DNA of 63,411 nucleotides, counting the filler, from Collodictyon triciliatum (lineage: Eukaryota), in assembly GCA_043381765.1 (NCBI GenBank). It is 7 parts of 7 records of this genome, joined end to end, with 100 filler letters (N's around TTAATTAATTAA, not from the genome) between each part and the next. Parts side by side here need not be neighbours in the genome. Positions count along the whole stretch, not along the records: positions 1 to 9,544 come from JBHJMP010002966.1; 6 more parts are not named here. One strand, given 5' to 3'. This document shows, in pieces, positions 1 to 48,692 of the stretch (position 1 is its first letter; every line of letters starts with the position of its first letter). The position numbers and the translations under genes were made by a program. The notes beneath the pieces are model-generated. The model ran no database searches and was not told the origin of the DNA. It saw nothing but the letters and a program-made list of their open reading frames with translations.

Positions 1-848
1 GAATAGTTTAATAACTAAATATTGTGTTCAATATGTATAGACACAGTCACATGAAAATTTTTAATAGGCAGCCAACTTATATGACTTTTTGGAGGGTGCT
101 TACTGTATGGATAGGTTGTTTTCTTCGTATCGAGGATTTTATAGATGTATAACCTGATTTACCTTTTTAATGCCCATTCGGACTTAAATACCGTATATAA
201 GCAACATGTTACAATCAACATGTCACAATCAACATATCGATATACTTTTAAATGATAAAAATTAATCAAATACAATCAAAAATTAAAAATTCTCGTAATA
301 TATCAATTGGAACAGGATATTGCCAATATTGATAGTAACTCTTTTGTAATTATGAAATAAATATTTTATTGCTATCATAAGCATGCATACGATAAAGAAT
401 GCAAACAGTGCAAGACTATTTTACATCTATGAGATATTAGTTGTAAATTGATCATTCAGGTTATGGAGCAAGATTAATACATAATGAAACAAATAAACAC
501 AGCATACAATTTTAGTATATTCATACAAAATATTTTTAATTATATGCCATGGCTAGTGCATTGTTGGCTTTGTATATGTAATCATTGTGCGTTGAATAAT
601 CAAAATACAGTCCCTATAAGACTGGAATATCAATACTGTTGGTCACTTAAAAATTATTAATAAATCAATACTCCATGAGACACGCTAACTGTGGCGTTGA
701 CCACGGAGTCCAGACCACGGCGTAAAGGCTTGGCTATGTAAATTATTATTTTCTCTCTTTTAAAATTTGTGCAACCCTCGATTGTTTGACCTGACATAGT
801 AATGTATTTTTTAGATGCATCAAATAATAATACACATAATCGATACGA

Positions 849-1328
849 TTATTTTGATACCAGAAAACTAATATAAATCAGCAAAAGAACGTTGGTAGTT
901 ATGAGACCCTGAAGAGAAACCAAGCCGACATAAAAACCCAAGAGAGCTGTCCTACTCCCATATGATATTTCTTGGGGCGCTAATCTTACAAATAAATCGA
1001 AGAAATCAAAAGCATATGAAACCTATCTCATAAAGTACAAGCGTGAATATATATAATGGAATAATAAAACTTTAGATATAGTTATCCTAACATATAACAA
1101 CTGTAAACAAAAAAATAAAAAAATGGGAATCCACCAAAACATCATCGCTAATGAAATACCTTGCACACGACAAAAAACCATAAACAAATTACTTCTGAAA
1201 CTTCCAGAATATTCTTCTGGTATAATTGCGAATAATTGTAAGATTCTACCAACCACAACATAACCAAATATAAATAAAAATCCCTGTGTTTTTGTTTTAC
1301 CTTTCAATTCCTTACTCAACCGCACCAC
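849..1328 (-). pseudogene. Fragment of a multi-pass membrane protein, possibly GPCR-like (last TM helices)
   Basis: Hydrophobic frame GFLFIFGYVVVGRILQLFAIIP... continues after a TAG (possible intron acceptor) as ...LLGFYVGLVSLQGLITTNVLLLIY; LxxLQG resembles TM7 of cAMP-receptor/secretin-like GPCRs. No full model could be built. Confidence 0.25.
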
Positions 1329-3722
1329 TTATTGTTGTTAGATATCATAGTCTTTACTTAAATGACACTCGCGTTGAAGAATATAATAACTGTCTGACAT
1401 ATACAGGTAATAAAACTCCTTGAAATCGTTCTTAAGGTAACTGATTTGTGCGTACTTTTTTCAACCCGACAATTTTTTTAGCCCTTCTTTCAATCTCGAA
1501 CACAATTTGAACCCGCGTTGGATTTTTTTTTATTTACAACAGAACAAGATGTTGGCGCCTGTGCCTACAATCTTAAAACCATGTTTGATTTAACCCACTT
1601 CAGGAAGAAAAGTTTGTGTGCAAAAAAACTTTGCTACTTTTCTATTTCACCACCCAGTTTATCTTTTCTTACGTTCCTATTCATCTCTTTATATTAATCA
1701 AAAATTTTATTTTTATAAACAAAAAATCCAAATACATAAAGTTCAAGTTTTCCACTGTCTCATCCGTATCTCGTGTTTGTCCTAGAGGCGAAGGCAGCAC
1801 CTCGACTTTGTTTTCTATTAGTAAATAGTTGAAATGAAATCAAGGAAAAATAAAAAATGCTACCTTGAATCAATTAAAAGCAACACAACTCATATATACA
1901 AAAATACAAAACCATTGTCATCGAATCTTTTTTATCTCTTATGGAAGATATTTGGCAAATTATAAAAAACCTTCAACGCATCACCACAAGCTTATCGATT
2001 TGCTTGCACATTTGTAAAGAATATATTGAAAACACTTGCTAGTTTTTTCGCTGTAATACCCTCAAAAATTGCATTTCTAAAGGAGCAGAGAGCATTTACT
2101 GATGTTTGCAATATTGCCACCCTTGAGTGTGTATTTCTGTTTCTTAAAAACAAAGAATCTGAAACTGTTCCTTTCAATACTTTTATTATTCGAATATTTG
2201 TTATGATAAATCTATTCTTTATATAATTCTTGTTTGATACCACCATAAATACTTTTCTTGACCGGGTTTACTTCTCTTTGTGTTTATGCAAGTCCAGTAA
2301 GTTAAAGTCAAGTTTGAATTATTCATAATTTTATTATTATTTGTGCATATATAATTTTTTACGTATTTTTTTGTTTGTTTTCACTTCAGTAGCTAACAAG
2401 TATGCGAACAGATGGAAGAGCCGCATGTGGAGTCGCATCACTCACAAATGTGCCAGTGATGCGAATAAATAGAGGCCTTACAAACAGAATAAGGACAGTG
2501 TCATGCTAAATTACATCACATTCTCTACTGCAACAACAGGTAGAAATATCGTCTATGCTTACACGCTCTGAAGCTTTATGAACACGTTTGCTAAAATCTT
2601 TAAATACATACATATAAAAACAACTTAATATTTTACAAAAAAATATTATATTAATAGTTGGACAACACTGCCGGTGCCTTACAGGCTCAAAGAAAGTAGC
2701 GAATTTGAAAAGGACATACAGAGCCTACATCTTGAAGAAATTACAATAACATATATTTCATAAGAAAAATATAATGAAATTATCATATTGAGAGCAAGTG
2801 ACACACGCGCAAGAGTTGAATACTGTCCACACAGGTTGTGTAAATTATGATTTCTTATATATACTTTAATAAAAAAAATAGCAAAATATTCCAGGAACAC
2901 ATAATATGCAAACAAAATCAACAAACCTTACAATGTTTTTGCATAGGATGAAATGTATACCTTTCACCCATGAAACACAGAACAGTGTACTGTATATAAT
3001 AATACTATTAATAATGTTATATCCTTCGTTCAATTCAAAGAAAGGGGATTTTCCCGCATTTTTCTACAGTCCGCCGTTGTTGTTGCACCTTGTTTGAACG
3101 CAATGAACACGTCGGATTCGGGTTTAAGTCAGCTTGGTATAGAAACTCAATTTGTGGCTCATCAAAATTCATGTATGAAGGCCGAGGATAGTTACAACTC
3201 TAAAGGGCTGCAACTAACAGGAGCCCTGACCTGGATTCGACTCAAAGTCAATTTCACCTGAAGGCGAATGAACGCAAATTATATTACTTGGTGTTAAAGT
3301 GAATATAAGGGCAGATTTAGCATCTTATTGGATAATACATCGCGCACTCGAGGTCAGCAGTACAGAGTAAGAGTTGAATATCGAAAAGGCATCTGCGCGA
3401 TTGTTAAGGCCATGTTCTTGTGAGAACGCATCGCTGAGGGGTAAAATTATCATCACTTACTATTCATTTATGAGATATTACATTTTTTGCATTGTTTTGA
3501 TTAATAGTTCATATCCCAGACATAAATTAAAAGCCAACTGGCCAAGATAAGATTTTTGTGTACGAAGAAAGCATGGACGAAAAGAACCGGCAAGGATTAT
3601 GGACATCTATGTGATTTTTATATTTACTTGGCGTAATTTCTTGTAAATATCTGTGCAAATCTAAGCCTTTCGAATAAACAGAATGAGAACATAAAAAAGG
3701 TGACAGAGGTCGATATCAACGC

Positions 3723-4010
3723 ATGCTTCAGAAAATTTTTTGTGGCATATGTGTCACTTTATACAACAATTTTGCAGTTCCACCGGGTCAAAAAACATTT
3801 TGCTTTGGCTGTATCATGTCAGCCGTCAGCAATTCAAATGTAAGTCTGGCGTTTGGGTGCAAAGTGTGTACCGAGCTAATTCAAATGAATGTAAAAAGGC
3901 AGTGAGTATCTTATATAATTCGATTGATTCGCGTTTACAGGATATATAATCAGGTAAAGACACCGGCGATAAGGTCACAAAATGGTTCATATGTTATCCG
4001 ATGCAAGGAA
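3723..4010 (+). pseudogene. Degenerate RING-finger-like exon(s)
   Basis: CGIC-x11-(GQK)TFCFGC-x15-CKVC resembles C3HC4 RING with the C-x-H pair lost; followed by a GTGAGT...TTTACAG intron-like stretch and then the gap. Confidence 0.3.
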
Positions 4011-4478
4011 NNNNNNNNNNNNNNNNNNNNNNNNNNNNNNNNNNNNNNNNNNNNNNNNNNNNNNNNNNNNNNNNNNNNNNNNNNNNNNNNNNNNNNNNNN
4101 NNNNNNNNNNNNNNNNNNNNNNNNNNNNNNNNNNNNNNNNNNNNNNNNNNNNNNNNNNNNNNNNNNNNNNNNNNNNNNNNNNNNNNNNNNNNNNNNNNNN
4201 NNNNNNNNNNNNNNNNNNNNNNNNNNNNNNNNNNNNNNNNNNNNNNNNNNNNNNNNNNNNNNNNNNNNNNNNNNNNNNNNNNNNNNNNNNNNNNNNNNNN
4301 NNNNNNNNNNNNNNNNNNNNNNNNNNNNNNNNNNNNNNNNNNNNNNNNNNNNNNNNNNNNNNNNNNNNNNNNNNNNNNNNNNNNNNNNNNNNNNNNNNNN
4401 NNNNNNNNNNNNNNNNNNNNNNNNNNNNNNNNNNNNNNNNNNNNNNNNNNNNNNNNNNNNNNNNNNNNNNNNNNNNNA

Positions 4479-4987
4479 AGGCATCTGCCCTGCCTACCGA
4501 CAACAAGGATTATTCCAAAGTTAAATATGAGGACCTAGAGAAGGGAGACTACATTATGTATGAAATGAAAGCACGGTCGTACAATGGCAAGGAGTACCCA
4601 GCCAAGATTAACCAGGGCTTTGTTTCAATGATTCAAAATGAAGTGGGTAATGCTTTATGGAAAGACCAGGATGGTAAAGTCTTGGGAATGACAAACTACG
4701 GAAAGACTTGGACTAATAACACCAAAGACATTGGTGACATATACAGGCAATCAAAGGAAGCTGCCCTTGAGAAAAAGAAAAAGGGTTTAGCCACGGTCAA
4801 AGAGAATGAACCCAAGCGCGCAGAGAAGCGCAAGATAGTTGCAGAAGCTGAAGCCTCTATGCAAAAGAAAGAAAAGGAAGCAGCCAAGGAATTAGAGAAT
4901 GACCCTGAAGCATTGGGCAAGCTTGCAAAGGAAATACAAAAAGAGTTGAAAAAAAAACCACGCTTTACCCTGCCTAAGGCCAAATAG
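4479..4987 (+). CDS. Orphan protein of the element (5' end in gap), Lys/Glu-rich C-terminus
   Basis: Open frame of ~168 codons from the gap edge to a stop overlapping the integrase 3' end (convergent overlap 4974-4987). Confidence 0.7.
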
Positions 4988-6386
4988 GATCTACAGTTAA
5001 ATTCGCTACCGGTGTATCGTCTTGAGGCTTCACAGCTAGCTTGCGTCTTTTTTCTATTGGCTCTGCTATCACACGCTTTAACTTTTCAAAGTTCTTTTTC
5101 TGCAGTGTAGTCAATGGAGGATCATTTGTATACGCCTGAATAAAAGCATCAAACAACTTTTTAATTTTGGGATGTGCCTTTACTAATTCTTCTTGTCGTT
5201 CTTTTTTGCCTACATCAAACTTCCCTGTTCTGTTTGTAAAGTTCTTGGCGCTCATCCATAACACACCCCAAGCCTTGCGTGCTTTCACTTTCTCTTCAAC
5301 TAATCTAGGTCTGCCTCTTGGTCTAGACTCTGTGTCTCGTTTAATTAAATCAACTACAGGCTTGAAATTTTTGTCTGTGTCTTTGTCCACGGGTTGTAGG
5401 TCTCTACGTAGAAAACGCTTGCCCTTTAATATTTTCTCGTCCCCCTCTTTAGCTGCCTTTAATTCATAAGTTGGTGCTTTGAATCCCTCCTTATGAATAT
5501 TCACTTTATGTATAATAAAAAGCTCTGTGGTAAATTTAGGAATCCAGTTCTTCTGTGTCTTGAATTTATTTCTTTCTTTTGTTGTCAGGTTGGTTTTAGT
5601 TAGACTGACTCTAACTTTAGTGCCTACATCCAACACATTGTCTCTTTCGCTCTTGCTGGCTTTTTCCAATTTATCCTGATTTGCTTTTATCAACTTCTCC
5701 AGGTTTTCTTTTGTTGTAGCATTGTTGGGTATCACACCTGTGTTTCTATTAGGCTGGTCATTGATACTATCAGCTGTCTGCTCTAGCACTTCTTTTGTCA
5801 ATACATCTTTACCAGTCTTTTGATGAAACTTGTACAATGAATTTTTCACTACGCTATTCATACGCTCGACGTATGCCTGGCTTGTAGGATTGTATGCCGA
5901 ACTCTTGACCGACTTTAATCCGTGTTCCTTCAGCCAGGATTTCTCATACTTGAACTCTGTCCCGTTATCACTCTGTATAACCTTCAATGGCGGATAGTCC
6001 TTTTTAAAATTTAGTACGGCCTTCTTTGATTCGGCTAGTGTCTTGTCTGTCAATGGATACAGAAATACTTTGCGGGTTAGTAATACAACACACACCATCA
6101 GATACTTAAACATATTACCCTCATAGTCATCTGGATACAATCCTTTGGTATAAATCAAATCAATCTGTGCATAACTAGGATCGGTTACATTAAACGGATT
6201 GACATCTTTACTTTTAAAAGCTGGCTTGCTTATTTGTTGATAGGGATTTTTCTTCATCCACCTTGAAATGTAACTTCGCGGTATCTCTTTATTAAAGTGT
6301 CTATACAATGCATCAATCGAATTCACTTGTCCAGGTTCGTTGTAGCGCTTCTCTAATTTTTCGTTATAATTATCACTTGTGCTCAT
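4974..6386 (-). CDS. Retroviral-type (rve) DDE integrase of Polinton/Maverick/mavirus type, with AT-hook
   Basis: 470 aa; triad motifs AQIDL, IQSDNGTEF, AYVERMN; FKYLMVCV..TRK..LYPL; Polinton-like C-terminal VGTKVRVS...FTTELFIIHKV...TYEL; RPRGRPR AT-hook. Confidence 0.93.
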   Translation of the reverse strand: MSTSDNYNEKLEKRYNEPGQVNSIDALYRHFNKEIPRSYISRWMKKNPYQQISKPAFKSKDVNPFNVTDPSYAQIDLIYTKGLYPDDYEGNMFKYLMVCVVLLTRKVFLYPLTDKTLAESKKAVLNFKKDYPPLKVIQSDNGTEFKYEKSWLKEHGLKSVKSSAYNPTSQAYVERMNSVVKNSLYKFHQKTGKDVLTKEVLEQTADSINDQPNRNTGVIPNNATTKENLEKLIKANQDKLEKASKSERDNVLDVGTKVRVSLTKTNLTTKERNKFKTQKNWIPKFTTELFIIHKVNIHKEGFKAPTYELKAAKEGDEKILKGKRFLRRDLQPVDKDTDKNFKPVVDLIKRDTESRPRGRPRLVEEKVKARKAWGVLWMSAKNFTNRTGKFDVGKKERQEELVKAHPKIKKLFDAFIQAYTNDPPLTTLQKKNFEKLKRVIAEPIEKRRKLAVKPQDDTPVANLTVDPIWP

Positions 6387-6422
6387 ATATTAACATAGAT
6401 TTTATTTTCGGATGTAAAACGC

Positions 6423-6444
6423 GATTTAAAGACATCTGTATATA
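6423..6444 (+). promoter_or_regulatory. Element-specific upstream motif, copy 1
   Basis: GATTTAAAGACATCTGTATATA, 8 nt before ATG 6453; 17/22 identical to the motif upstream of the TVpol-helicase gene. Confidence 0.55.
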
Positions 6445-6452
6445 ATTACTTA

Positions 6453-6767
6453 ATGAAGATGGATCATCATTTTACACAAGAAGAACTTAACCTGTTCAAT
6501 ACATTTTGCCTCCGCGAATTTTATATGTCGCTGGATACTGTGCGCACATTAGTATCGTCTGGCCTTAGAACAAAAGCACGAAATTCCCGCGGTTACAAAC
6601 GCCGCACACAAAGAAAAAAAGAAAAAGAAGCCATCGCTCAAATTATAGAACCTGAGCCCCCTCAGATTGACATCCAGATTGACTACACAGAATTTGATGA
6701 ACGCTTCCCTAAAGTTTACTCAACCGGAATGTCTTCTAGTGAATATTTCTCCGACAATTCAAAATAA
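6453..6767 (+). CDS. Small orphan protein of the element (basic, NLS-like centre)
   Basis: 104-aa ORF filling the space between integrase and helicase; preceded by the shared motif; RGYKRRTQRKKEKE basic patch. Confidence 0.65.
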   Translation: MKMDHHFTQEELNLFNTFCLREFYMSLDTVRTLVSSGLRTKARNSRGYKRRTQRKKEKEAIAQIIEPEPPQIDIQIDYTEFDERFPKVYSTGMSSSEYFSDNSK

Positions 6768-6792
6768 ATTGTGGCAATCACCACCATTCATT

Positions 6793-9066
6793 TTATTCTT
6801 TTGTGCGGGCTCTCTTGGCGCTGCTCACAATCTCATCAGTCACAAAGTAACTCTTCATATTGCTGTTATCTGTCATCATCTTGCGAACCTCTTTATAGTC
6901 GCATTCATACTTACCACGTTTAACAGTAATCGGGTAGGTAGATTTAAAATTAGTCCAGATTGGATTATTGATAAACGATTTAAACTCCAACACTTTGTGA
7001 TTCGGTAATCTCTTGGCGCTAAACATTTTGTAAATGTCATATATCTCATCGGCGTGATGGCAAAAAGGAGATGGGTCCTTTTCTTTATGCCATTGATACT
7101 TTGATTTAAACGTCAGCTCATATGTGTCCCAGATGTAATCATTCCAGTCAACAAACAAAAACTTGATAAACTGTTCCACGGGATGCATACTAGTTTCTGC
7201 CAACACTTCACACGTCTCACTTTTGGGAAAGTCATTAAAGTTGAAATTAGGATCATGTTCATTCATCAACACTTTTGTAAATATCTTGACAAACTCATCA
7301 TTGTAAGTTTCCTTTGTTAACTGTGATATCTCTTGTGGAGTCAGTCTATACTCTTTCACATCAAACACAGGGAAGCGTCTCATATTGTCCCTTTCAAATA
7401 CAATACCAATTTCTTTGTTGGTGTTGAGAATATAATTGACCGTGTTCTTTACTGGATACGGATTGTGGTACAACATACGCACGTGATTATCGTCACGGTC
7501 CACAGCTTCTTTAATGTCTCCTTGCAAACTCTTTGTCTTTGAAGCATCACTCTCCTCCAATATACACAACAGCTTATTAGCAATGTTCATATTCTTTTCT
7601 CCAAAGACCTCAGACAAACCGGAATGTGTGCTGCCGTATTGCCTGCCTAGAATTTGCTGCACAAACATCTTATAAAAGAAAGCAGTCTTACCTGTCCCTC
7701 CTTTGTTGTTGCGGAATATCATCATCTTGCCAATTCGATAATTGGGTTGATACAGAATTCTCGCTAGGTATTGAATCACATATTTCTCAGATTCGGGATT
7801 ACCCGCACAGAGATACTGAGACAATTGCTTATATGTCATACTACTCTTCCAAATAGTATAATCGGCTTCGCTCACGGTTTGAGCAATGTTAGTACAATAC
7901 CCTAGCCAGTCAATATATTGTTGTCCGTCAAATTCTGGGAAATACTTTTCGAATGCAAAGCCTTTGAAATGGTTGTAGGCCTTGGGGTTGTATTTGTTTG
8001 TAAATCCGTCATAGGGTATAAAGTCAAAGTACATAAAGTGTCGTTCAATTGGTAAATATAACTGCACAGTTTGCCAAAACCCATCTCCAAATCGTTGACA
8101 ATAAGATGGGGCAGACTTTATGTGTTCGGGCTTACGAGTAGGTTCATCTGGGTACTCGACAAACAAGTTGCCAAGTAACATAAAATGAGTCTTTGCAAAT
8201 TCTTCTATTGATGTGTCTGCATTGATAGTCTTAGGCTCTAATGTTGATTCAATAGGTTCAAAGCTAAATTCTACTTTGTACCCTGTCTGCTCTTCAATAT
8301 ATCTTGCCAGTTCAATATTCTTTTCAACTGGGTCGCAATACTGTTCCTTATTAACAAACAGACCATCAAAATTGTACATCCCAATCTCAACATTAGCTTG
8401 TTGTAATACACCAATCACTTTTTGCATTATTTTTGTTTCTTCTGTTTGCAGCAAATATGCCAAAAAACTATAAATGCGATTGTCGTGTTCTTCTAAACTA
8501 TCAAAATCGTCTTTGAATTTCAACTTGTGCCATTCAGGATATTTAGAATATGCCATAGCAGCCAGAATTTGCATTTCTTGCAGTTTGATACTAAACTCGT
8601 CATTACTAACAAGTGCTTGTCTTTTGCCACTAAACGCTAACATCAAATATCTTTTCTTGACTTCCTTGCGAGTCTTATGTGTTAACTCCATTCCCCTTTC
8701 AATTATACTATCACGGTTCTTTACATATTCCTCGATAGCTTCGTGATCTATATTCCATTTTTTTGCCAAAGCCAAAGACAGAGCATAATGGCAGTTGACA
8801 ATATCAAGGCTAGCATATTTATCCTTCAACAGATAATTACGAATGGGTTTATTAAGCATTCCCACTGAAATACCACAAGGGTAGAATCTACCAACTTTGA
8901 TTTTTCTTAAATGCTTAGCATAATCGTATTTGACTTTTAAGCCATCCTTCTCCATTTGCTTTTTCATAATACTTAGCTTCCCCTTTTCCTTTTTGCTGAT
9001 TATATCTTCTGGCTGCTTCAGCAGCTTTTTAATTGTAATGGGGTCGATTGATTCAACTAGTTCCAT
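6793..9066 (-). CDS. TVpol (family A-related primase-polymerase) fused to D5-like superfamily 3 helicase
   Basis: 757 aa; N-terminal GRFY, motif A YASLDIVNCH, motif B RKEVKKRYLMLAFSG, LQTEE, motif C YNFDGL; C-terminal Walker A NKGGTGKT, Walker B LCILEES, motif C ILNTN, RRF. Confidence 0.88.
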   Translation of the reverse strand: MELVESIDPITIKKLLKQPEDIISKKEKGKLSIMKKQMEKDGLKVKYDYAKHLRKIKVGRFYPCGISVGMLNKPIRNYLLKDKYASLDIVNCHYALSLALAKKWNIDHEAIEEYVKNRDSIIERGMELTHKTRKEVKKRYLMLAFSGKRQALVSNDEFSIKLQEMQILAAMAYSKYPEWHKLKFKDDFDSLEEHDNRIYSFLAYLLQTEETKIMQKVIGVLQQANVEIGMYNFDGLFVNKEQYCDPVEKNIELARYIEEQTGYKVEFSFEPIESTLEPKTINADTSIEEFAKTHFMLLGNLFVEYPDEPTRKPEHIKSAPSYCQRFGDGFWQTVQLYLPIERHFMYFDFIPYDGFTNKYNPKAYNHFKGFAFEKYFPEFDGQQYIDWLGYCTNIAQTVSEADYTIWKSSMTYKQLSQYLCAGNPESEKYVIQYLARILYQPNYRIGKMMIFRNNKGGTGKTAFFYKMFVQQILGRQYGSTHSGLSEVFGEKNMNIANKLLCILEESDASKTKSLQGDIKEAVDRDDNHVRMLYHNPYPVKNTVNYILNTNKEIGIVFERDNMRRFPVFDVKEYRLTPQEISQLTKETYNDEFVKIFTKVLMNEHDPNFNFNDFPKSETCEVLAETSMHPVEQFIKFLFVDWNDYIWDTYELTFKSKYQWHKEKDPSPFCHHADEIYDIYKMFSAKRLPNHKVLEFKSFINNPIWTNFKSTYPITVKRGKYECDYKEVRKMMTDNSNMKSYFVTDEIVSSAKRARTKE

Positions 9067-9087
9067 TTTCTTTAGTTCCTACTACCC

Positions 9088-9109
9088 TATAGACAAATGT
9101 TTTTAAGCC
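9088..9109 (-). promoter_or_regulatory. Element-specific upstream motif, copy 2
   Basis: GGCTTAAAAACATTTGTCTATA on the minus strand, 21 nt before ATG 9066. Confidence 0.55.
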
Positions 9110-9150
9110 AGCATTTACATAATAATAGGGGTATGCGTTTAACCCCTCTT

Positions 9151-9365
9151 ATAATGGGTAGGGTTGTGCATTGGTTAATTTCTCCTTACTCTTTTATATA
9201 AGGGGTATATATGTATAACTATATGTATATCCTTATATGTATAAGTATATATATATAAAGTTATAGGATACCTTACCCCATTTTATATGAAAAAGAGCTA
9301 AGGGTGTCCATATAAAAAGTTTTTAAGGGGGGGTTAGGAGGAGGGTACGTGTGCAACCCCATTAT
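9151..9365 (+). repeat. Long imperfect nested inverted repeat (hairpin)
   Basis: Nested arms ATAATGGG/CCCATTAT, GGGTTGTGCA/TGTGCAACCC, CCTTA/TAAGG, CTCTTTT-ATATAA/TTATAT-AAAAGAG, GGGGTA/TACCCC, TATAACT/AGTTATA, CTTATA/TATAAG, centred at ~9238. Confidence 0.75.
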
Positions 9366-9588
9366 TCAAAAATAACTGTAACAGGGCCACGAAGAATAGA
9401 GTAAGGAGTTTTCTTTTTCCTAGTCACCCTTTTCTTTTTTGTAAAGAGCAAGTCAAGAAACATCTGAGCCTCCTCAAAAGTCAAAAATACGTGTTGTTCA
9501 GAATTAGGAGTATATAGTCGTAACATATATTAAGACTAGATATTNNNNNNNNNNNNNNNNNNNNNNNNNNNNNNNNNNNNNNNNNNNN

Positions 9589-9600
9589 TTAATTAATTAA
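9589..9600. other. Artificial scaffold linker TTAATTAATTAA (also 19222, 28861, 38498, 48134, 59920)
   Basis: Identical 12-mer with stops in all six frames, always flanked by 44 N on each side. Confidence 0.97.
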
Positions 9601-10789
9601 NNNNNNNNNNNNNNNNNNNNNNNNNNNNNNNNNNNNNNNNNNNNTGTTTTTTGTTTTTTGTTTTTTGTTTTTTGTTTTTTGTTTTTTGTTTTTTTGTTTT
9701 TTTGTTTTTTGTTTTTTGATCCAGGTTCCGTGGACAACAAGCCGTTCGTGTGGCGGTGGCGGGTCTTCTCTGTTTTTGCAGGTGTTGATTACGAAGTTTG
9801 TTACAGCGTCTGTTGCGGATAGTTTCTTTGAATATCCAAGTCGCAGCCAAAAAAAAGGTGGATATCAGTTTTGTCTCTTTGTTTTTAAGGTTCGTTTTTG
9901 TTTATTGAAAGGCACGATAATTTTCGAATTCAAAACATGGTTTCCCCACACAAACAAAGGCGATGGAGTGTTCGCGCATCACAGTCGCAATCAGCCTTTC
10001 GCCTCTGCGCGGNNNNNNNNNNNNNNNNNNNNNNNNNNNNNNNNNNNNNNNNNNNNNNNNNNNNNNNNNNNNNNNNNNNNNNNNNNNNNNNNNNNNNNNN
10101 NNNNNNNNNNNNNNNNNNNNNNNNNNNNNNNNNNNNNNNNNNNNNNNNNNNNNNNNNNNNNNNNNNNNNNNNNNNNNNNNNNNNNNNNNNNNNNNNNNNN
10201 NNNNNNNNNNNNNNNNNNNNNNNNNNNNNNNNNNNNNNNNNNNNNNNNNNNNNNNNNNNNNNNNNNNNNNNNNNNNNNNNNNNNNNNNNNNNNNNNNNNN
10301 NNNNNNNNNNNNNNNNNNNNNNNNNNNNNNNNNNNNNNNNNNNNNNNNNNNNNNNNNNNNNNNNNNNNNNNNNNNNNNNNNNNNNNNNNNNNNNNNNNNN
10401 NNNNNNNNNNNNNNNNNNNNNNNNNNNNNNNNNNNNNNNNNNNNNNNNNNNNNNNNNNNNNNNNNNNNNNNNNNNNNNNNNNNNNNNNNNNNNNNNNNNN
10501 NNNNNNNNNNNNNNNNNNNNNNNNNNNNNNNNNNNNNNNNTATTTTTTTTAAAAGGAAGATGTCATAGAACTCCTTCCGTGGAAAAGAGGTATGACATCC
10601 AACATATATGTTACATAAATGTCCTTTCGTAAAAATATAAAATGGGTATTTTGTCGACAGTAGGCTCGCATGCAATGGTATAATAAACACATACGCAGAG
10701 TAAGGTATTAAAATAATAATAATAATATAATAGTGTGCACTTAAGCGACTTGTTTTCACATATTGGCCTAATGTAGAGGGAATATTAAC

Positions 10790-27466: not shown

Positions 27467-27485
27467 GCTTCCATGGCGCAACCGG

Positions 27486-27522
<37 letters not shown>

Positions 27523-27539
27523 GAGCCCACCTGGGAGCG
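27467..27539 (+). tRNA. tRNA-Asn (GTT)
   Basis: Cloverleaf: GCTTCCA/TGGGAGC acceptor, TTCGG-CT GTT AA-CCGAA anticodon arm, GGTTCGAGCCC T arm; downstream T-run. Confidence 0.96.
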
Positions 27540-28816: not shown

Positions 28817-29160
28817 NNNNNNNNNNNNNNNNNNNNNNNNNNNNNNNNNNNNNNNNNNNNTTAATTAATTAANNNNNNNNNNNNNNNNNNNNNNNNNNNN
28901 NNNNNNNNNNNNNNNNACATACATACATACATACATACATACATACATACATACATACATACATACATACATACATACATACATACATACATACATACAT
29001 ACATACATACATACATACAGAAAAGCGAAATGCTATTTTCCCATCATAAAGGTGATAATACTTAATTTTTATAACTGAAAGCACCAATCGCAGGGTGTCT
29101 ATAACTAGTGAGCTACAATAATTGAAATGAGGAAAGAGAGGAATAGTATTGGGTTAGTCG

Positions 29161-38453: not shown

Positions 38454-38553
38454 NNNNNNNNNNNNNNNNNNNNNNNNNNNNNNNNNNNNNNNNNNNNTTA
38501 ATTAATTAANNNNNNNNNNNNNNNNNNNNNNNNNNNNNNNNNNNNNNNNNNNN

Positions 38554-38648
<95 letters not shown>

Positions 38649-38768
38649 TCTCTTGCTCCCGAAATCTTATTTTTTTTTTATGCCTGGTTTTCTTCTTCCT
38701 CCTATAATAATTGTTATTTAAACTTCTTTCAGTCTTGTCGATTTCCCTTAAATTTACCATGTGAACAG

Positions 38769-40987
38769 GCAGTTTACTCCCTCTTTGGAAATTTTCCTTT
38801 GATAAAGCAAAGAAACGGACCGTAACATCCATCGCATGGAACCCCGAATACAACGATTTGTTTGCTGTGGGCTATGGTAGCTATGATTTCCTGCGACCTA
38901 CATCAGGTGTGATTGCATGCTTCTCATTGAAAACGCCATCATATCCCGAATTCTGGTTTACCACTGAATCCGGTGTCATGGCTTTGGACTTTCATCCTCA
39001 GGTGTTTATAATATTGCCTCTATAATCATACTTTTTTTTTTCCTTTATTCGATTCAAAGAGTCTCTATAATCATACGTATTCGGCCCTCATAAATTGCAG
39101 TGCTTGATTTCTCATGGGAAAAGAAAAGCCTTTTACCCATCAAGAATCATATTTTGCACTCATCAGAACAACTCTCATAGCATTCCTCGCTTCTGGCCGT
39201 CGGACTGTATGATGGGAGAGTACTTGTCTTTGACATCCAAAATAAGAATAACAGACCCATCTTCCAGTCTAATATTAAGACGGGGAAGCATACCGAGCCT
39301 GTCTGGCAGGTTTGCGGATACACCAACCTAAGCTTTCGTGTCATGGTCATGTCATTTTCTTCTTAATTCTTCCTTTCAATTTGTGCAAGATGGTGAAGGT
39401 CGTGGCTTTGGTTCGCCACCCATTTTTGCCCATGACATGATCATTTTAATTTCAATTGTTAACATCATATCTATTCATGTTCTAGGTAAAATGGCAAGAG
39501 GAAGACTTTGCCAAAGACTTGCAGTTTTACTCTATCTCCTCTGACGGTCGTGTCTGTCTGTGGACCATGTCAAAAACTGGAATCAGTCATAATGTATTGA
39601 TAATATCTTGATATTGAAATTTCTGTATTTATCAAGATTAAGATCGCCACAATATTATCATTATCATTATCATTATCATTATCATTATCATTATCATTAT
39701 CATTATCATTATCGCGATATGCGATTTAATCTTATTTTTTCTTCCGTTTACGACCTCATAATTATAACGATCATGAATATTTTGAAAAGGACATATTGGA
39801 GTTGAAACAGAATCCATCAACAAGTCATGACCCCAATACTGAAGACGACTCAACCATGTACGGACTATCTGCTGGAACAGCCTTAGATTTTAACCGATTC
39901 AGCGAGCACTTGTTCCTTGTTGGGACGGAGGAAGGATCCATTCACAAGTGCTCAAAGGCTTATAATAGACAATACCTCGAGACATACGAGGTAGATTCCG
40001 TCATAAGCATAACAGTACCTAATAATCACATTCTTGGTGAACCTGTGAATCTTATCATATAGGAGCGGTCCAAATCGAGGAACTGCTGCCCTTACACCAA
40101 TGCTGATTAATCTTATATCATATTTAGGGTCATGGGATGGCGGTCTATGGCGTCAAATGGAATCCTTTCCACCCGAAAGCATTCATATCATGCAGTGCTG
40201 ACTGGACAGTGAAAGTGTGGGACCATAGCCGAAAGCAGCCCTTGTTTGCTTATGACTTGAACAGCTCTGTGGGTTCCGTCGCATGGGCTCCCTTTTCATC
40301 AACAACGTTTGCTGCCTGCACTACTGATGGAAAGGTATATTCTTGATAGGTCTTTGCTTTCTCCTAAAGGAATCACTAACTTGATTCTTTATCTTTATAG
40401 GCCTATTTTTTTTTTTTTTTGGAAGTTGTTAACAATTTCATAATTTTTATTTTCGTGTGACCCAAGGTTCATATTTTCGATTTGGGCATCAACAAGCATG
40501 AATCACTGTGTGAACAACCCATCGTGAAAAAATCTAAACTCACACAGATAGTATTCAACCCTAAGGTAAACGTTCATTGTTTTCTTTATATAATATTTAT
40601 ATACATACATGATAATAAAAGCGGAATCAAAGAGGTGAACATATCCCAAAGCCATGACTGTGTTATTCCTCTGCAAATTTCAAATATCCACTATGACTCT
40701 GTCGAGTGAAAACGAGCTAGAAGCGATGCAACAATAATAATAAAAATACATACGATAATATATTACTATGCGTGACAAAAAAAAAACCATGCTGCATTTG
40801 CTGACGGAATAAATAAACGTGTGCAACACATCAGGAACCGATTGTCCTTGTGGGAGATGACAGAGGCGGAGTATCCTGCTTGAAGTTGTCTCCAAATCTG
40901 CGCGTACATGGAACGGCCGAAAGTGAGCATGACAAGATGGAGCAAATGCTGTCCCTGGTGAAGCCTTCGCCCAATGCCCAAGAATAG
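38769..40987 (+). CDS. DNAI1: Axonemal dynein intermediate chain 1 (WD40), 5'-partial
   Basis: [97 protein letters not shown]. Confidence 0.93.
39033..39063 (-). mobile_element. Poly(A)-tailed micro-insertion with 14-bp TSD (other copies ~15360, ~51570, ~54762, ~61297, ~61858)
   Basis: ACTCTTTGAATCGAATAAAGG-A10 flanked by direct repeat CTCTATAATCATAC. Confidence 0.75.
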
Positions 40988-41027
40988 CGGATTTGTCCCA
41001 CAAACTGTCATTCATTCATCACACTCC

Positions 41028-41090
41028 ATCACACCCCATCACACCCCATCACACCCCCATCACACCCCATCACACCCCATCACACCCCAT
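41028..41090. repeat. (ATCACACCCC)n 10-mer tandem repeat, about 6 copies
   Basis: Direct inspection. Confidence 0.9.
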
Positions 41091-41354
41091 TTCACTCCAT
41101 CGCGATTGTTCTCATCAAACACCTCTATTCGGGGACATACCCATCACCGTGGAAAGCACTCGAAGGCAACCTCGCCATGAGTCCACGATAAAGGAACCGA
41201 ATAACCAGAATACGGCGAATGAGGAGCAAAAGTAGAATGTATCACCTCTGCTTCTTTCAGAGAAAGTAGAAAGAGAGAGGAAGAAGGAGCAAACAACCCG
41301 CACGCAAAGCCCACCAACACAGCGAGACACTCATCACACATAACACAACAAAGC

Positions 41355-44300
41355 ATGAGCTTGAACCTGCGAGCGGACACACTCGACAGAGTCTACGCAA
41401 GCGCAAGTGCAAACACAGAGCCGTTCTATGCGAGGGACTATGAATCTGACCCGTTCAAGGCTGCGGGCGAAGCAGATCTGAACCCGGCTGCTTCGGCCAT
41501 GATCCGGTGTATACTTGATCCACTGAGCAACGAGGTTGCAAGTTTGGAGTCAGGCGTCAAATCCTTATCCAGACTGACAAGTGAGTCGCAGCTCCAAAGC
41601 ATTCGCGGAGGACAAACAAACTTATTCCAAGCCTTGGCCGACCCGCCTTCGGCGCACAAGGAGTCTGCCGCCCATCTACATACATTACTGAGTGCGCATA
41701 TGCGTCCCATCATCCAGTCCACGGAAAGATTGCAGGGCCTTATTGCCGTAACAAAAGAGCGTTTGGTTAAGTTTGCTTTGTCCACAACATCACAGGCAAG
41801 CACATATCTACCTCCCCGTCACTACGTACATGCACATAGAGAAAAAGCCGCGCCCACCTATGACATCGAAAGCATGAGTGCTCGACTGGGTGGCCGAGAT
41901 AGGGTGGTCGCTTTTGGGCCGGATGATGCAACTCCGCTCACCCATGTAATGCCTCGTGGAGTGGAAAAGGAAGCCGCTCGGATGGCACAGCTACATGCTA
42001 TCGAGACGGCGATGGAAAGGCGTGCAAGCCAGGCGGTTATAGACAAAGAGCAAACCATAGCCCAATTGAGGGAGCAGTGCGTAAGCTATTCCCAAACACA
42101 AGCCATGGATAGGCAGCTCCTACAAGATGCACAGAAGCAGCTTACTATTGCGTAAAATGACTTAAGATTTTTTTCCCTTCCTTTCCCCTTTTTTTGTTCT
42201 TTTCTATTCTTTTCTTTGTTTTATTTGGGGTTGCTCATGTTTTCTTGTGTTCGCTCAGGTTTTCTTATGTTTCTTCTTATATTTTCATTCTTGGTTTTGA
42301 ATCATGTCTTTTAGGAACAAAAAGATCGAGCAATACGAGACAGCTTACAAGAGGCAGAAAGAACAAATTCATCGCCTAGAAGGCAGCCTAGAGCAATCCC
42401 GTCGTGATCTTTCCGAGGCCAGAGGAGAGATTGTACAAACAAGACATGCAATTAATCATATGCGCAAAAACGAGATGGAGGCACATCACCGAAAAGAAGA
42501 GGTTGAAAGTGTTGCCATGGGTACAAAGAGGAGTTTTCAGGAACTTAATATTCTATTGATCGAATTGAAGCAAGAATTGAAAGAGGCAAAGAGGTTAGAG
42601 GATGCCTCCAAGCGCGAGCTATTGGACCTTAAGAAGCAAGATGGAGAAACGCAACAACAGTTGACGGATTTGAAAAGAAATGAGGGAGCACTTTCGAAAG
42701 AAAATATGGAACTTAAAGCACAATGCGAATCATTGGCGAAAGACCTCTTGCAGCTTCGAGGGTCAGATAACCCCCTTAAAATGGAAATAGTCGAGTTGAA
42801 GTTACAGAATGAAGTTCTGAAGAGAAACATCACTGACTTGAGTAGAAATGAGGCGTTCAAGTTCAGAGAATTGAATGATATGAGACTTCGAGAACAAGAA
42901 ACCAAATCTCTACTCACTGAAGCCAGAGCCCGAGAGGATGTTTCCAAGAAGGAACTCGCCGAGTCGTTAAAAAATGCCATGTCATTACAACGAGATTGTT
43001 CTGAGATCAAAATCCAATTGGATACTCTCAAAAGAGACTTGATTGACACAAAAAAAGTCGAGGATTCACTTCGGAAAGAAGTATTGGAGCTCAGATGCCG
43101 TGATGAAACTGCCAGGCGGGGATTTTTGGATCTTAGGAGTAGAGACGAGACGATAAGAAAAGACATCGTAGACGCCAAGAAAAATGAGGAGCTTGCCAAA
43201 AAGGAGGTGGCAGAATCTAAAAGGAATGAAGAGGCACTGAAGATTGAAATAGCTGAAATGAAGAGACATTTTGAAGGATTGAACGCAATTATAATTAGGT
43301 TAAGGGAAGAATTGAAGGAGACGACTCTCCGTGAAGAATCAGTTCAACAAGAACTCCGGGAGCTAAAAAGGATAGGGGAATGCGAAAGGGCGCAACTAGT
43401 TCAATTCAAACTTAATGAGGAATTACAAAAGAGAGACCACTCGAATCTGAGAAACGAAATCGACCACCTTAATAGCATTATATCTAATATGAAATCAAAT
43501 GAAGAGGCATTAAAAAAGGAATTGTCTGAGGTAAAGAATCGCGAGGAAATGTCTAGAAAAGGCCTTTTGGAGATGAAGAGTAGGGAGGACCTACTGAAAA
43601 AGGATTTCGCAGAGGCTAAGGTGAGCGAACAAATTTTCAAAAAGGATGCCATCGAGGCAAAGAAGGAGGAGGAGAGAGTCAAAAAGAGTCTCCTGGAGTC
43701 TAAGCAGAGTGAGGAGAATGCAAAACTAGAAATTCAACAAATGAAAAGATTCGAAAGCAGCCTAAAACAAGAAATAACCGAGGCAAGGAAAAATGAGGAT
43801 TTACTGAGGCAAGAGGTCACAGAAATAAAGAAAAAAGAAGACCATCTGAAGGCGGAAGTGGCTGAGGCGAGAAAGAATGAAGAAAAATGGAAGCAAGATT
43901 TGTTCCAATTACAAAAAGATATGGATGATTCAAGAAGCACGATAAAATCCCTCAAAGATGTGGTCGAGGCAAAAGAAAAGGAAATCTCGCAAGTGAGGCA
44001 AGGGGACTTGGAAAAGATGAACCTAGTCCAACAACTAAAGGAGCGCAACCGCGAGCTTGAATACTTGTTGATGGAGAAGGACTCGAGGATTAAAAAGGAA
44101 TCACTACACCGCGAGCAGCTCAGACAGAGGCGCAACCAAGCCCAAATGTTGTTGCAAATCGCGCTTGAAAAGCCAAAAAGTCAGGAACCCCCCATGAACT
44201 ATCGAATTCCCGAACCTGTCTACAACCATAGTCAAAATCACGCTGCGAGTAGCACACGCCGTTGTCACGAAAGAAAGCAATCGGACTTGGTTGACTTGGT

Positions 44301-44355
44301 CGACCTTGCCGAGGATGAAAATGGGAATGAGAGGAGACTCCCCGCGTTTGATTGA
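41355..44355 (+). CDS. Large coiled-coil protein (2 exons, about 945 aa)
   Basis: ORFs 41355-42155 and 42304-44355 join in frame via a GT(42152)-AG(42315) intron (..TIA|NKKIE..); 14-aa-periodic E/K/R-rich repeats. Confidence 0.8.
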
Positions 44356-44636
44356 AGAGAATAAAATATTATTTCAACATGGAAAAAATGCCATTGATAA
44401 TATGGATTCCGATAAGCTTGAAAAAAAAAAATCTAGAACCTTTCCCGCATCGCCCACCAGAGCGTGGTGAAAAAAAAAAGTGTTGTGTTGAGAACCAAAA
44501 GAATTATTCAAGTACAGTATAATTTAATCCATATTAACATATAAGGACAAATTCTTTGAATTTTAGCAGGAAGTTGTTCCTTTGGAATTTCTCAATTTTT
44601 TTTTCTCTGTCGTGTTCGTCGCATGGAACCACATAT

Positions 44637-44665
44637 CCTCTTTCCGCTTCGACTCTTCCTTCGCG
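44637..44665 (+). promoter_or_regulatory. Pyrimidine-rich (TOP-like) transcription start region of RPL8, followed by a 5'UTR intron (~44694-45133)
   Basis: CCTCTTTCCG...CTCTTCCTTC; GTAAGT donor; TTCTCTTACAG acceptor 10 nt before the ATG. Confidence 0.5.
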
Positions 44666-45143
44666 TACCACCAGCAAGTCACGCCTGCTAAAAGTAAGTT
44701 GAAGTACCCCAGCCCTTGGCACACAACCAAAAAGGCTCTCAAACAGCCGACCCCGCGCTGACTATATGGCCTGTGCGGAAAGATTTGACCTGGTCTAAAC
44801 TATCTGGACGACACCAAGAGCGATTTAAAGAGCCCTATCCAAGGGCCTAGCCTTGATCTGATCATCTAACCATTGCCAGCGGACAGAGATATTTAAGATT
44901 GTGAAAGTTGGGGCGTCAATCATTCCCTCTGAGAAACCAAGTCTAGCAGCCACGATACCTTTTGTGAGCACGACAGGACGCACCAAACAACCATTTGTTT
45001 ATTGAATTTTGCTGAGCCACACTGCAAAATTTGCTGCGATCACCACAACTGCCGATCACTGGCCCTTGAATTCGTCACATAATTCAGATCACTAACTACC
45101 ATGTGTTCTTTTACCTTACCTTTTCTCTTACAGACAGAACAAA

Positions 45144-46304: not shown

Positions 46305-46419
46305 GCCGTTCAATAAATCTGTGCACTTTAACCGACACCAGACTGCGACGCCCAGCCAGCCAGCCTCAACCCATTGCCACAGCGTCTATATGAGTTTCTT
46401 TATTCACACGATCTTGCAG

Positions 46420-47926: not shown

Positions 47927-47990
47927 CCAGCTCCGTGTTGGTGGGTAGATTTCATAAGAAAATCCAGAATCCTAGAATGTGTTTATGCGT

Positions 47991-48089
<99 letters not shown>

Positions 48090-48692
48090 NNNNNNNNNNN
48101 NNNNNNNNNNNNNNNNNNNNNNNNNNNNNNNNNTTAATTAATTAANNNNNNNNNNNNNNNNNNNNNNNNNNNNNNNNNNNNNNNNNNNNAACAAAAAGGA
48201 GGTTTCTGGTCATTAAGGAGGAATGTAAAAAAAAAAAAAAAAAGGAAAGAAAAGAAGCTTGTTGCGCACTTGCCGTGCAAAGCATATCTTGATTGTCTAT
48301 CCTTCCCTTCCAGCTTTCGCAAATTGCTCTACCTTAACTTTAAGGATAATTTTGCTTTGTCATTCCCTGCCATCAAAGATCAACACAGAGCAACAAAGAA
48401 AATAAGTGCATGTGGCTTGTGGCTGTCTTCTTCAATCCGAGGGCGACCCCGTCAATACATCCTCCTTCTTTCTTTCATCCCTCTTTCTTCTATATATTCT
48501 CGCGACACATCTATTTTTTTCAATCTTTCTTTCTTTCTTTCCCTATGATTCACACCGTCACTTTTTGTCTCCATCCACAAAGCCAACACCCACAACGCCC
48601 GCTTCCATCACAGCACCCACCAAAAAGGCGACAAGAAGGAAAAAAAAACACGACGTTTTCATACCTCTTCTGGAGTTTATTGACAATGAGCG

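What the first reader, a model, noticed from the sequence alone, without database searches (positions are those of the whole stretch)
4478..9544. Intact-looking endogenous virus-like element pairing an rve integrase with a TVpol-SF3 helicase
Seen: four uninterrupted, intron-less, tightly packed ORFs. Known: Polintons and mavirus pair rve integrase with protein-primed PolB, whereas Sputnik pairs its TVpol-helicase with a tyrosine recombinase; PLVs shuffle these modules. Here rve integrase sits beside TVpol-S3H, with no PolB, capsid, ATPase or protease in view and host-like DNA only ~470 N to the left. Inference: either one end of a new PLV/virophage lineage or a compact capsid-less self-synthesising transposon (transpoviron/Tlr1-like).
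Basis: partly seen in the sequence, partly recalled or inferred. Interest (0 to 1): 0.85.

Follow-up and report, generated by a model that had tools for sequence, protein, structure and literature searches.

The report
Fragment of a freshwater polinton-like virus
This 5-kb stretch is the replication and integration part of a small capsid-forming virus of the polinton-like/virophage kind that is common in freshwater, and whether it is really inserted in the host genome cannot be told from this assembly.

Summary
The four ORFs are real. Three are complete. ORF1 lacks its first 20 codons, which fall in the N gap. The 757-aa protein is a TVpol (family-A polymerase fold) fused to an SF3 helicase. 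The 470-aa protein is a divergent rve integrase with an intact D,D,E triad.

The 5,067-bp contig is a piece of a larger virus, not a whole element. Close relatives on metagenome contigs carry a Pox_A32 packaging ATPase directly upstream of the TVpol-helicase, and two of them also carry a penton protein. Helicase and integrase relatives share contigs of 15.9 and 17.2 kb. This argues against the capsid-less-transposon reading.

Seventeen aquatic metagenome runs from 11 studies hold 29-56% of the stretch's sampled words. In the four runs laid, the integrase half is 98-99.9% identical and contigs run past both contig ends. The host-like left contig is not covered.

Endogeny is unproven. The only tie to host-like DNA is a sized 467-N scaffold gap, and the right end is an artificial scaffold-joining linker. 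The rve plus TVpol-helicase pairing recurs in this lineage but is atypical in the literature passages read. My verdict is a new member of a known kind, of moderate-to-low interest.

The parts
4011..4477 (.). Sized scaffold gap (467 N). It is the only link between the host-like contig 1-4010 and the element contig, and it hides the first 60 nt of ORF1 and whatever lies upstream.
   Evidence: ORF1 full length; the same 30-nt continuation left of 4478 in 4 of 4 metagenome runs, one of them with a single different letter (table 7)
4478..4987 (+). ORF1, 5'-truncated (169 of 189 codons). It is a lysine/glutamate-rich small protein of unknown fold that sits convergent with the integrase.
   Evidence: no Pfam, PHROG or PDB match; a 31%-identical counterpart sits beside the integrase in L001
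4974..6386 (-). rve-type (DDE) integrase, 470 aa. D76, D140 and E174 are invariant. There is an RPRGRPR motif at about residue 353 and a lineage-specific C-terminal tail.
6453..6767 (+). ORF3, 104 aa. A small conserved protein of unknown function, divergent from the integrase and convergent with the helicase gene.
   Evidence: no Pfam, PHROG or PDB match
6793..9066 (-). TVpol-SF3 helicase replication protein, 757 aa. Residues 1-~300 (nt ~8167-9066) have a family-A polymerase-like fold, with D88, N91, K137, Q207-E209-E210-K212 and D234-G235 invariant. Residues ~417-649 (nt ~7120-7818) are the SF3 helicase, with G457/G459/K460, E504/E505, T549/N550 and R563/R564 invariant.
9067..9544 (.). Non-coding stretch upstream of the helicase gene, with an AT-rich TATATGTATA-type repeat at 9205-9266. 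It is hypervariable between strains. The contig and the scaffold end here, inside the virus.
   Evidence: loose ends at 9126 and 9357, and contigs that run 482 and 1105 nt past 9544 (tables 7 and 8). In L001 the equivalent 490-nt spacer is preceded by the A32 ATPase gene.
9545..9644 (.). Artificial scaffold-joining linker (44 N, TTAATTAATTAA, 44 N). What follows is an unrelated scaffold.

Best explanation
Window 4478-9544 is a partial genome, the replication-integration module, of a capsid-forming small dsDNA virus of the polinton-like-virus/virophage assemblage. The virus circulates in fresh water.

Shown:
- The 757-aa protein joins a family-A-polymerase-like TVpol domain to an SF3 helicase, and all family-invariant residues are present.
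- The 470-aa protein is an rve/DDE integrase with an intact triad.
- The closest relatives place an A32-type packaging ATPase just upstream of the same helicase gene. Two of those relatives also carry a penton (minor capsid) protein there.
- Helicase and integrase relatives share contigs of 15.9 and 17.2 kb.

Inferred mechanism:
- TVpol-S3H opens and primes or copies the viral DNA.
- The A32 ATPase packs the DNA into a jelly-roll capsid whose genes lie outside this contig.
- The rve integrase inserts the genome into a eukaryotic host chromosome, giving a dual virus/provirus life style. ORF1 may act as a DNA-binding partner of the integrase.

The copy in this assembly is cut at both contig ends. 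I put about even odds on it being physically joined to eukaryotic DNA (a recent provirus) against co-sequenced viral DNA placed by a wrong scaffold link.
For: Domains:
- Pfam DUF5906 at 46.7 bits and a PHROG DNA primase match.
- PDB profile hit 6k9c/6k9e 'Primase' at E 5e-25 over residues 417-649.
- AF2 model of residues 1-330 with pLDDT 87. Its best PDB folds are Klenow, Mycobacterium smegmatis Pol1, Bst, Taq and T7 DNA polymerases, with 158 matches at E<=0.001. Its best viral folds are full-length virophage replication proteins such as Zamilon and Qinghai Lake virophage.

Integrase:
- The family profile hits PFV, HTLV and HIV integrase cores, best E 2.2e-10.
- D76/D140/E174 are invariant in 9 of 9 sequences.

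Virus hallmark genes in relatives:
- Pox_A32 at 35-38 bits, above the 22.8 cut-off, in L001, L003 and L004 directly upstream of the helicase.
- The 256-aa L003 protein models at pLDDT 89. Its best folds are the mavirus penton 6g41 (E 2e-9), Sputnik 3j26_N, a PBCV-1 capsid chain and adenovirus penton bases.

Pairing conserved: helicase P0008 and integrase P0036 both list a longest contig of 15,859 nt, and P0020 and P0041 both list 17,173 nt. L001 holds both genes.

Circulation:
- 17 runs from 11 studies hold 0.29-0.56 of the stretch's words.
- In 4 of 4 laid runs, contigs cover 4478-9544 and continue past both ends. 4478-~7050 is about 98-99.9% identical.
- dN/dS for the helicase gene is 0.22.
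Against: - No capsid, ATPase or protease gene is in the window itself. The virus assignment rests on relatives that are 84%, 57% and 32% identical in the helicase.
- The major capsid protein of the close lineage was not seen, so polinton-like virus against virophage is open.
- That helicase and integrase lie on one 15.9 or 17.2-kb contig is inferred from equal 'longest contig' lengths. It was not read from the contigs, because the tool that fetches them is closed.
- On the integration state: no read or contig spans a junction. The host-like contig 1-4010 is not covered in four metagenome runs that hold the element at word depth 3-62. No inverted-repeat pair links the left contig and the element.
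Confidence: 0.8

Rival explanations
1. A true, recent provirus. The virus genome was inserted by its rve integrase into the chromosome represented by contig 1-4010. The terminal repeat and junction lie in the 467-N gap, and the rest of the element is on other, unjoined contigs.
For: - A sized scaffold gap implies paired reads linking the two contigs (inference).
- Contig 1-4010 is AT-rich and has no ORF over 101 aa, so it does not look viral.
- The DDE triad is intact.
- ORF1 starts only 60 nt inside the gap, so the integrase cassette could sit at an element terminus.
- Passages of PMC10120064 say such insertions are common in protists and break short-read assemblies.
Against: - No junction sequence exists.
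- The element ends its scaffold inside an intergenic stretch.
- Near-identical copies occur without this flank in 4 of 4 runs laid.
- The scaffold is one of a chain of small left-over scaffolds, where contaminants tend to collect (inference).
- The eukaryote that owns contig 1-4010 need not be the nominal organism.
Confidence: 0.45
2. Co-sequenced free or episomal virus DNA, or a provirus of a contaminating protist, that was scaffolded to unrelated DNA by a wrong link.
For: - The same sequence is found in aquatic metagenomes of 11 studies.
- It is 99.9% identical over about 2 kb to contigs of run X7.
- The left flank is not covered there.
- Only a 5-kb piece was assembled, and both ends are open.
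Against: - Scaffolders normally need several consistent read pairs (inference).
- A virus with an intact integrase is expected to integrate.
- Absence of the flank from contigs of metagenomes is weak evidence, since low-depth DNA is not assembled.
Confidence: 0.4
3. The ORF1 + integrase pair is a separate two-gene mobile cassette nested in the virus genome, and is not the virus's own integration module.
For: - In L001 the cassette is inverted relative to the window and is only about 30% identical, while the adjacent helicase is 84% identical.
- Only 1 of the 109 loci that hold a helicase relative also holds an integrase matching the family profile at E<=0.001.
- One source names the integrase relative P0041 'transposase InsO family protein'.
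Against: - The cassette lies at the same place, next to the ORF3 start, in both genomes. This fits module replacement or inversion better than independent insertion.
- No flanking inverted repeats were found.
- Most of the 109 loci are short contigs, so absence there is weak evidence.
Confidence: 0.1
4. A compact capsid-less self-synthesising transposon (transpoviron- or Tlr1-like) made of just these four genes.
For: No structural gene lies in 4478-9544.
Against: - Contigs continue at least 373 nt to the left and at least 1105 nt to the right of the stretch.
- Relatives have an A32 ATPase and a penton gene next to the helicase gene.
- Related proteins sit on contigs of 15.9-17.2 kb.
Confidence: 0.03

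Closest known systems
[quoted passage not shown]
   Same: - N-terminal family-A-polymerase-like domain fused to an SF3 helicase, with similar overall length (757 aa against 776-853 aa).
- Fold matches at E 7e-18 to 3e-11.
- The architecture is described in passages of PMC4642659 and PMC12220804.
   Different: - Only 16-28% identical in the aligned part.
- In the passages read, those viruses carry a tyrosine recombinase or no integrase, not an rve integrase.
Mavirus-type virophages and Maverick/Polintons
   Same: - rve/DDE integrase.
- The penton protein of relatives is closest in fold to the mavirus penton 6g41/6g42.
- A32-type ATPase in relatives.
   Different: - The replicase is TVpol-S3H, not a protein-primed PolB.
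- Terminal repeats, target duplications and a protease were not seen.
- The integrase scores below Pfam's rve cut-off on its own.
Unnamed metagenome lineage (proteins P0001-P0011; loci L001-L003)
   Same: - Helicase 50-84% identical over its full length.
- Same ORF3.
- Integrase 46-100% identical in P0034-P0040.
- An ORF1 + integrase cassette is present.
   Different: - No full-length helicase over 84% identical was found.
- In L001 the cassette is inverted and only about 30% identical.
- These records carry no virus name, only 'hypothetical protein'.
Tlr1 of Tetrahymena and transpovirons
   Same: - Tlr1 carries an rve integrase (passage of PMC4642659).
- That transpovirons are small elements carrying a helicase is recalled from memory, not from a call.
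   Different: - Tlr1 has a superfamily-1 helicase (passage of PMC4642659); here the helicase is SF3 fused to TVpol.
- Relatives here carry capsid and packaging genes, so this is not a capsid-less plasmid.

Membership tests
TVpol-S3H replicases | N-terminal domain with a family-A DNA polymerase palm/fingers fold and conserved acidic motifs | tested here: met
   The AF2 model (pLDDT 87) matches Klenow, Taq, Bst and T7 polymerases at E 3e-7 to 2e-5. D88, N91, K137, E209/E210, K212 and D234/G235 are invariant in 25 sequences.
TVpol-S3H replicases | C-terminal superfamily-3 helicase with Walker A, Walker B, motif C and an arginine finger | tested here: met
   DUF5906 at 46.7 bits, above the 27.6 cut-off. 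PDB 6k9c at E 5e-25. G457/G459/K460, E504/E505, T549/N550 and R563/R564 are invariant in 18 sequences. Assigning these residues to the named motifs is my reading.
rve (retroviral-type DDE) integrases | RNase-H-fold catalytic core recognised by the rve model | tested here: met
   The window protein alone scores 28.6 bits, below the 32.6 cut-off. The L001 relative scores 42.4 bits. The family profile hits retroviral integrase cores, best E 2.2e-10, with 128 PDB sequences at E<=1.
rve (retroviral-type DDE) integrases | D, D, E catalytic triad with about 35 residues between the second D and the E | tested here: met
   D76, D140 and E174 are invariant in 9 of 9 sequences, with a spacing of 34.
Maverick/Polinton | [quoted passage not shown] | tested here: not met
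   No PolB lies in 4478-9544. The replicase is TVpol-S3H. The rest of the genome was not seen.
Maverick/Polinton | Terminal inverted repeats and a 5-6-bp target site duplication | not testable with these tools
   Both ends lie in N runs. No repeat pair links the flank and the element.
Polinton-like viruses / virophages (capsid-forming small dsDNA viruses) | A32-type packaging ATPase | tested here: inconclusive
   Absent from the window. Present directly upstream of the helicase in relatives L001, L003 and L004, at 35-38 bits against a 22.8 cut-off.
Polinton-like viruses / virophages (capsid-forming small dsDNA viruses) | Penton (minor capsid) protein | tested here: inconclusive
   Absent from the window. 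The 256/263-aa proteins of L003 and L004 fold like the mavirus, Sputnik and adenovirus pentons. 10 of 40 family members match Pfam DUF5901.
Polinton-like viruses / virophages (capsid-forming small dsDNA viruses) | Double-jelly-roll major capsid protein, whose type separates polinton-like viruses from virophages | not tested
   No contig of the close lineage long enough to hold it could be fetched. Nine ORFs of distant relatives, including candidate capsid genes, gave no capsid-protein Pfam match.
Virophages | Cysteine maturation protease | not tested
   Not in the window or in L001-L004. Longer contigs were not available.
Endogenous viral element | Continuous sequence or reads joining virus and host DNA | not testable with these tools
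   There is only a 467-N scaffold gap. No genome is held for the window. No run labelled as a single organism (as opposed to a metagenome) was among the 24 listed.

The most novel reading that the evidence does not exclude
The copy is a genuine, very recent integration. That would give the first host anchor for a widely spread freshwater virus lineage otherwise known only from metagenomes. This lineage has replaced the usual partners (PolB with rve, or TVpol-S3H with a tyrosine recombinase) by TVpol-S3H with rve. It also shuffles its ORF1-integrase cassette and its replicase as separate modules.
Probability: 0.4. Interest if true: 0.5.

Novelty: new member of a known kind. Interest (0 to 1): 0.3.

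Why it matters
If the junction with eukaryotic DNA is real, a virus lineage seen in aquatic metagenomes of at least 11 studies would gain a host. It would also be an example of an rve integrase serving a TVpol-helicase virus, which adds to the picture of free module exchange among polinton-like viruses and virophages. As the data stand, it mainly shows that a small left-over scaffold carries part of an environmental virus. That is also a warning about calling endogenous elements from gapped draft scaffolds.

Tried and rejected
- Own-genome searches: no genome is held for this window.
- Earlier findings of the scan: nothing by place, sequence or words.
- IMG/VR scans:
  - The single helicase protein found no relative.
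  - The helicase alignment found only relatives of 30% identity or less.
  - The integrase alignment found 12 loci of 41% identity or less over short parts. None carried the helicase, ATPase or penton.
- Phage GenBank collection: only two weak phage primase hits.
- ORF1 and ORF3: no Pfam, PHROG or PDB sequence match.
- Host identity: eight flanking ORFs gave no firm Pfam family. The Atlas look-up of a GTPase-like ORF gave only scores of 0.87 or less, mostly eukaryotic. I left the host as 'eukaryote-like, unidentified'.
- Composition: GC content and trinucleotide use do not separate the element from the flanks.
- Repeats: only short, chance-level pairs between the left contig and the element.
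- Bacterial promoter/terminator scan: at chance level and not relevant to a eukaryotic virus.
- Major capsid protein: nine ORFs of distant relatives, including candidate capsid genes, gave no capsid-protein family in Pfam.
- 'DUF5901' occurs in no paper of the library.
- The lack of cover of 1-4010 in metagenome contigs is weak evidence, because low-depth DNA is not assembled.
Full report
**What is in the sequence.**
Between two N runs lies a 5,067-bp contig, 4478-9544. Under the standard code it holds four ORFs:
- ORF1, 4478-4987 (+)
- a 470-aa ORF, 4974-6386 (-)
- ORF3, 6453-6767 (+), 104 aa
- a 757-aa ORF, 6793-9066 (-)

The spacers are 66 and 25 nt. ORF1 and the 470-aa ORF converge and overlap by 14 nt. 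9067-9544 is non-coding and carries an AT-rich repeat at 9205-9266.

ORF1 is not whole. A 189-aa protein that is 99% identical (P0043) shows that the window lacks the first 20 codons.

The left boundary is a 467-N gap, 4011-4477. The right boundary is 44 N, TTAATTAATTAA, 44 N. The same linker occurs six times in the window, mostly about 9.5 kb apart. The window is therefore a chain of small scaffolds. The scaffold in question is contig 1-4010, then the gap, then the element contig, and the element contig ends the scaffold.

**The two large proteins.**
*The 757-aa protein:*
- It matches Pfam DUF5906 at residues 455-564 (46.7 bits) and a PHROG DNA primase family.
- A profile of 18 homologues hits the PDB chains 6k9c/6k9e ('Primase') at E 5e-25 over residues 417-649.
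- Residues 1-330, modelled with 25 aligned sequences (pLDDT 87), match family-A DNA polymerases. The matches include Klenow, Mycobacterium smegmatis Pol1, Bst, Taq and T7, at E from 3e-7, with 158 matches at E<=0.001.
- Among predicted viral structures the model matches full-length replication proteins of virophages best. These include Zamilon and Qinghai Lake virophage, and two unnamed entries at 24-28% identity.
- All columns that are invariant in the family are kept in the window protein.

This is the TVpol-SF3 helicase architecture described in passages of PMC4642659, PMC12220804 and a 2026 preprint.

*The 470-aa protein:*
- Alone it scores 28.6 bits on Pfam rve, under the 32.6 cut-off.
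- A 9-sequence family profile hits retroviral integrase cores (PFV, HTLV-2, HIV and others), best E 2.2e-10.
- D76, D140 and E174 are invariant, with 34 residues between the last two.

**It is a piece of a larger, capsid-forming virus.**
- The helicase has 19 database homologues. Eleven are at 50-84% identity over the full length, all from metagenome sources and without a virus name. They sit on contigs of up to 17,175 nt.
- The integrase has a 100%-identical database protein (P0034) and relatives at 46-70%. A second clade lies at about 30%.
- P0008 (helicase, 54%) and P0036 (integrase, 67%) both list a longest contig of 15,859 nt. P0020 (in the 90%-identity cluster of P0001, the helicase 84% identical to the window's) and P0041 (integrase, 31%) both list 17,173 nt. 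I read this as both genes lying on one contig, but I could not fetch those contigs.
- Three fetched metagenome contigs show the neighbourhood.
  - L001 (helicase 84% identical) has a small ORF, a Pox_A32 packaging ATPase, the helicase, ORF3, an ORF1-like gene and an integrase.
  - L003 (57%) and L004 (32%) have a 256/263-aa gene, the small ORF, the ATPase and the helicase.
- The ATPases score 35-38 bits against a cut-off of 22.8.
- The 256-aa protein, modelled with 40 sequences (pLDDT 89), is closest to the mavirus penton 6g41/6g42 (E 2e-9). Next come the Sputnik penton chain 3j26_N, a PBCV-1 capsid chain and adenovirus penton bases.
- 10 of 40 family members match Pfam DUF5901.

A packaging ATPase and a penton next to the same replicase argue against the capsid-less-transposon reading. 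The major capsid protein of the close lineage was not seen, so I cannot say whether this is a polinton-like virus or a virophage.

**It circulates in fresh water.**
- The run index lists 20 runs of 13 studies that hold part of the stretch. Seventeen of them, from 11 studies, hold 0.29-0.56 of its words. All are labelled as aquatic, outdoor or unspecified metagenomes. None of the 24 listed runs is labelled as a single organism.
- Contigs of four runs from four studies were laid on 1-9544.
  - All four cover 4478-9544 at summed word depth of about 3-62.
  - 1-4010 gets only a few short pieces, such as two 18-nt matches and one of 123 nt with 10 differences.
- At 4478 all four runs continue leftwards with the same 30 letters, one run differing by a single letter. 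The letters translate in frame to residues 11-20 of P0043. The longest contig goes 373 nt further left.
- At 9544 contigs go on for 482 nt (X1) and 1105 nt (X6).
- From 4478 to about 7050 the contigs are nearly identical to the window.
  - X7: 1 difference in 1326, 0 in 558 and 1 in 174.
  - X3: 15 differences in 2299.
- From about 7050 to 9200 they differ by about 6-13%. The window copy is therefore a recombinant whose helicase variant is not matched closely in these runs.
- dN/dS of the helicase gene against L001 is 0.22.

**Is it endogenous?**
Points in favour:
- The gap is sized, which implies read pairs between the contigs.
- 1-4010 is AT-rich, without ORFs over 101 aa, and does not look viral.
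- The integrase looks active.
- Only 60 nt of ORF1 plus upstream sequence need fit in the gap. This would suit an integrase cassette at an element terminus.

Points against:
- No junction is sequenced.
- The element breaks off inside an intergenic stretch at a scaffold end.
- No repeat ties the flank to the element.
- Composition does not discriminate.
- The same sequence is abundant elsewhere without this flank.
- The scaffold sits among small left-over scaffolds.

No other piece related to the ORFs of loci L001-L110 lies in the window. No genome is held to look further. I put integration in some eukaryote at about 45% and a misjoin of co-sequenced viral DNA at about 40%.

**Modules.**
- In L001 the convergent ORF1-integrase pair is inverted relative to the window and is about 30% identical, although the neighbouring helicase is 84% identical.
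- L004 has an ATPase 91% identical to that of L001 but a helicase only 32% identical to the window's.
- Of the 109 loci that hold a helicase relative, one (L001) also holds an integrase that matches the family profile at E<=0.001. Many of these loci are short contigs.

This fits the module exchange described for these viruses in the 2026 preprint. It leaves a small chance that ORF1 plus integrase is a nested mobile cassette.

**Comparison with what is known.**
In the passages I read:
- Polintons and mavirus-type virophages pair PolB with rve.
- Polinton-like viruses mostly lack rve (a single exception in PMC4642659) and often pair a polymerase-helicase fusion with a tyrosine recombinase.
- Surveys of protist genomes list 'pPolB or primase-helicase' and 'tyrosine recombinase or rve' as alternatives.
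- Some newer clusters carry rve in 57-62% of genomes.

I found no passage that states the rve plus TVpol-S3H pairing outright. However, I made only two literature searches on this point, read only passages, and could not open the supplements. I therefore make no claim that the pairing is unpublished.

The element is a new member, at most 84% identical in its replicase, of a known kind.

**Verdict.**
The domains are right, and so is the 'part of a PLV/virophage lineage' reading.
- 'Intact' and 'endogenous' are not shown, and the 'capsid-less transposon' reading is not supported.
- Interest: 0.3.

Noticed in passing
window 9545-9644, 19178-19277, 28817-28916, 38454-38553, 48090-48189, 59876-59975: Six identical joins of 44 N + TTAATTAATTAA + 44 N cut the window into scaffolds of 9544, 9533, 9539, 9537, 9536 and 11686 nt, plus a cut last one. 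Neighbouring pieces are not physically linked.
   Followed up: yes
window 38554-48089: This scaffold has GC 0.456, against 0.32-0.40 for the others, and the lowest trinucleotide correlation with them (0.69-0.83). It holds a 684-aa ORF (42301-44355) and a 310-aa ORF (41223-42155) with no Pfam match. It may have a different origin.
   Followed up: partly
window 27467-27539 (+), 49395-49465 (-), 50786-50856 (-): Three tRNA genes. The last two have equal scores and lie 1.4 kb apart on one scaffold, across an N gap.
   Followed up: no
window 9645-9719, 11420-12240, 10768-11340 (-): The next scaffold holds a (TTTTTG)n microsatellite, long TCTTT-type repeats around an N gap, and an aspartate/glutamate-rich 190-aa ORF. 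Its only match is a weak Nop14-like hit at E 0.005.
   Followed up: no
window ~7050 (inside the helicase gene): There is a sharp change in likeness to metagenome contigs. Left of about 7050 they are about 99-99.9% identical, and right of it about 87-94%. This looks like a recombination breakpoint near the 3' end of the helicase gene (tables 3 and 8).
   Followed up: partly
L004 1493-2230 and 2702-5122; L001 322-1041 and 1537-3819: The packaging ATPases are 91% identical, but the adjacent TVpol-helicases are only distantly alike (32% between L004 and the window protein). This suggests a replicase swap between otherwise close genomes.
   Followed up: partly
L108 / L109 (one IMG/VR contig of 23,320 nt): The contig matched in both orientations. 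Each locus shows two ATPase ORFs with identical scores on opposite strands (6-848 - and 1555-2397 +). This points to a large inverted duplication, which could be a head-to-head assembly artefact or real long terminal repeats.
   Followed up: no
L026 4173-5216; L050 16134-17720: Distant TVpol-helicase loci carry a chondroitinase-B/beta-helix protein (E 3e-20) and a protein with CBM_5_12 carbohydrate-binding modules (E 4e-13). These may be fibre or host-surface enzymes.
   Followed up: no
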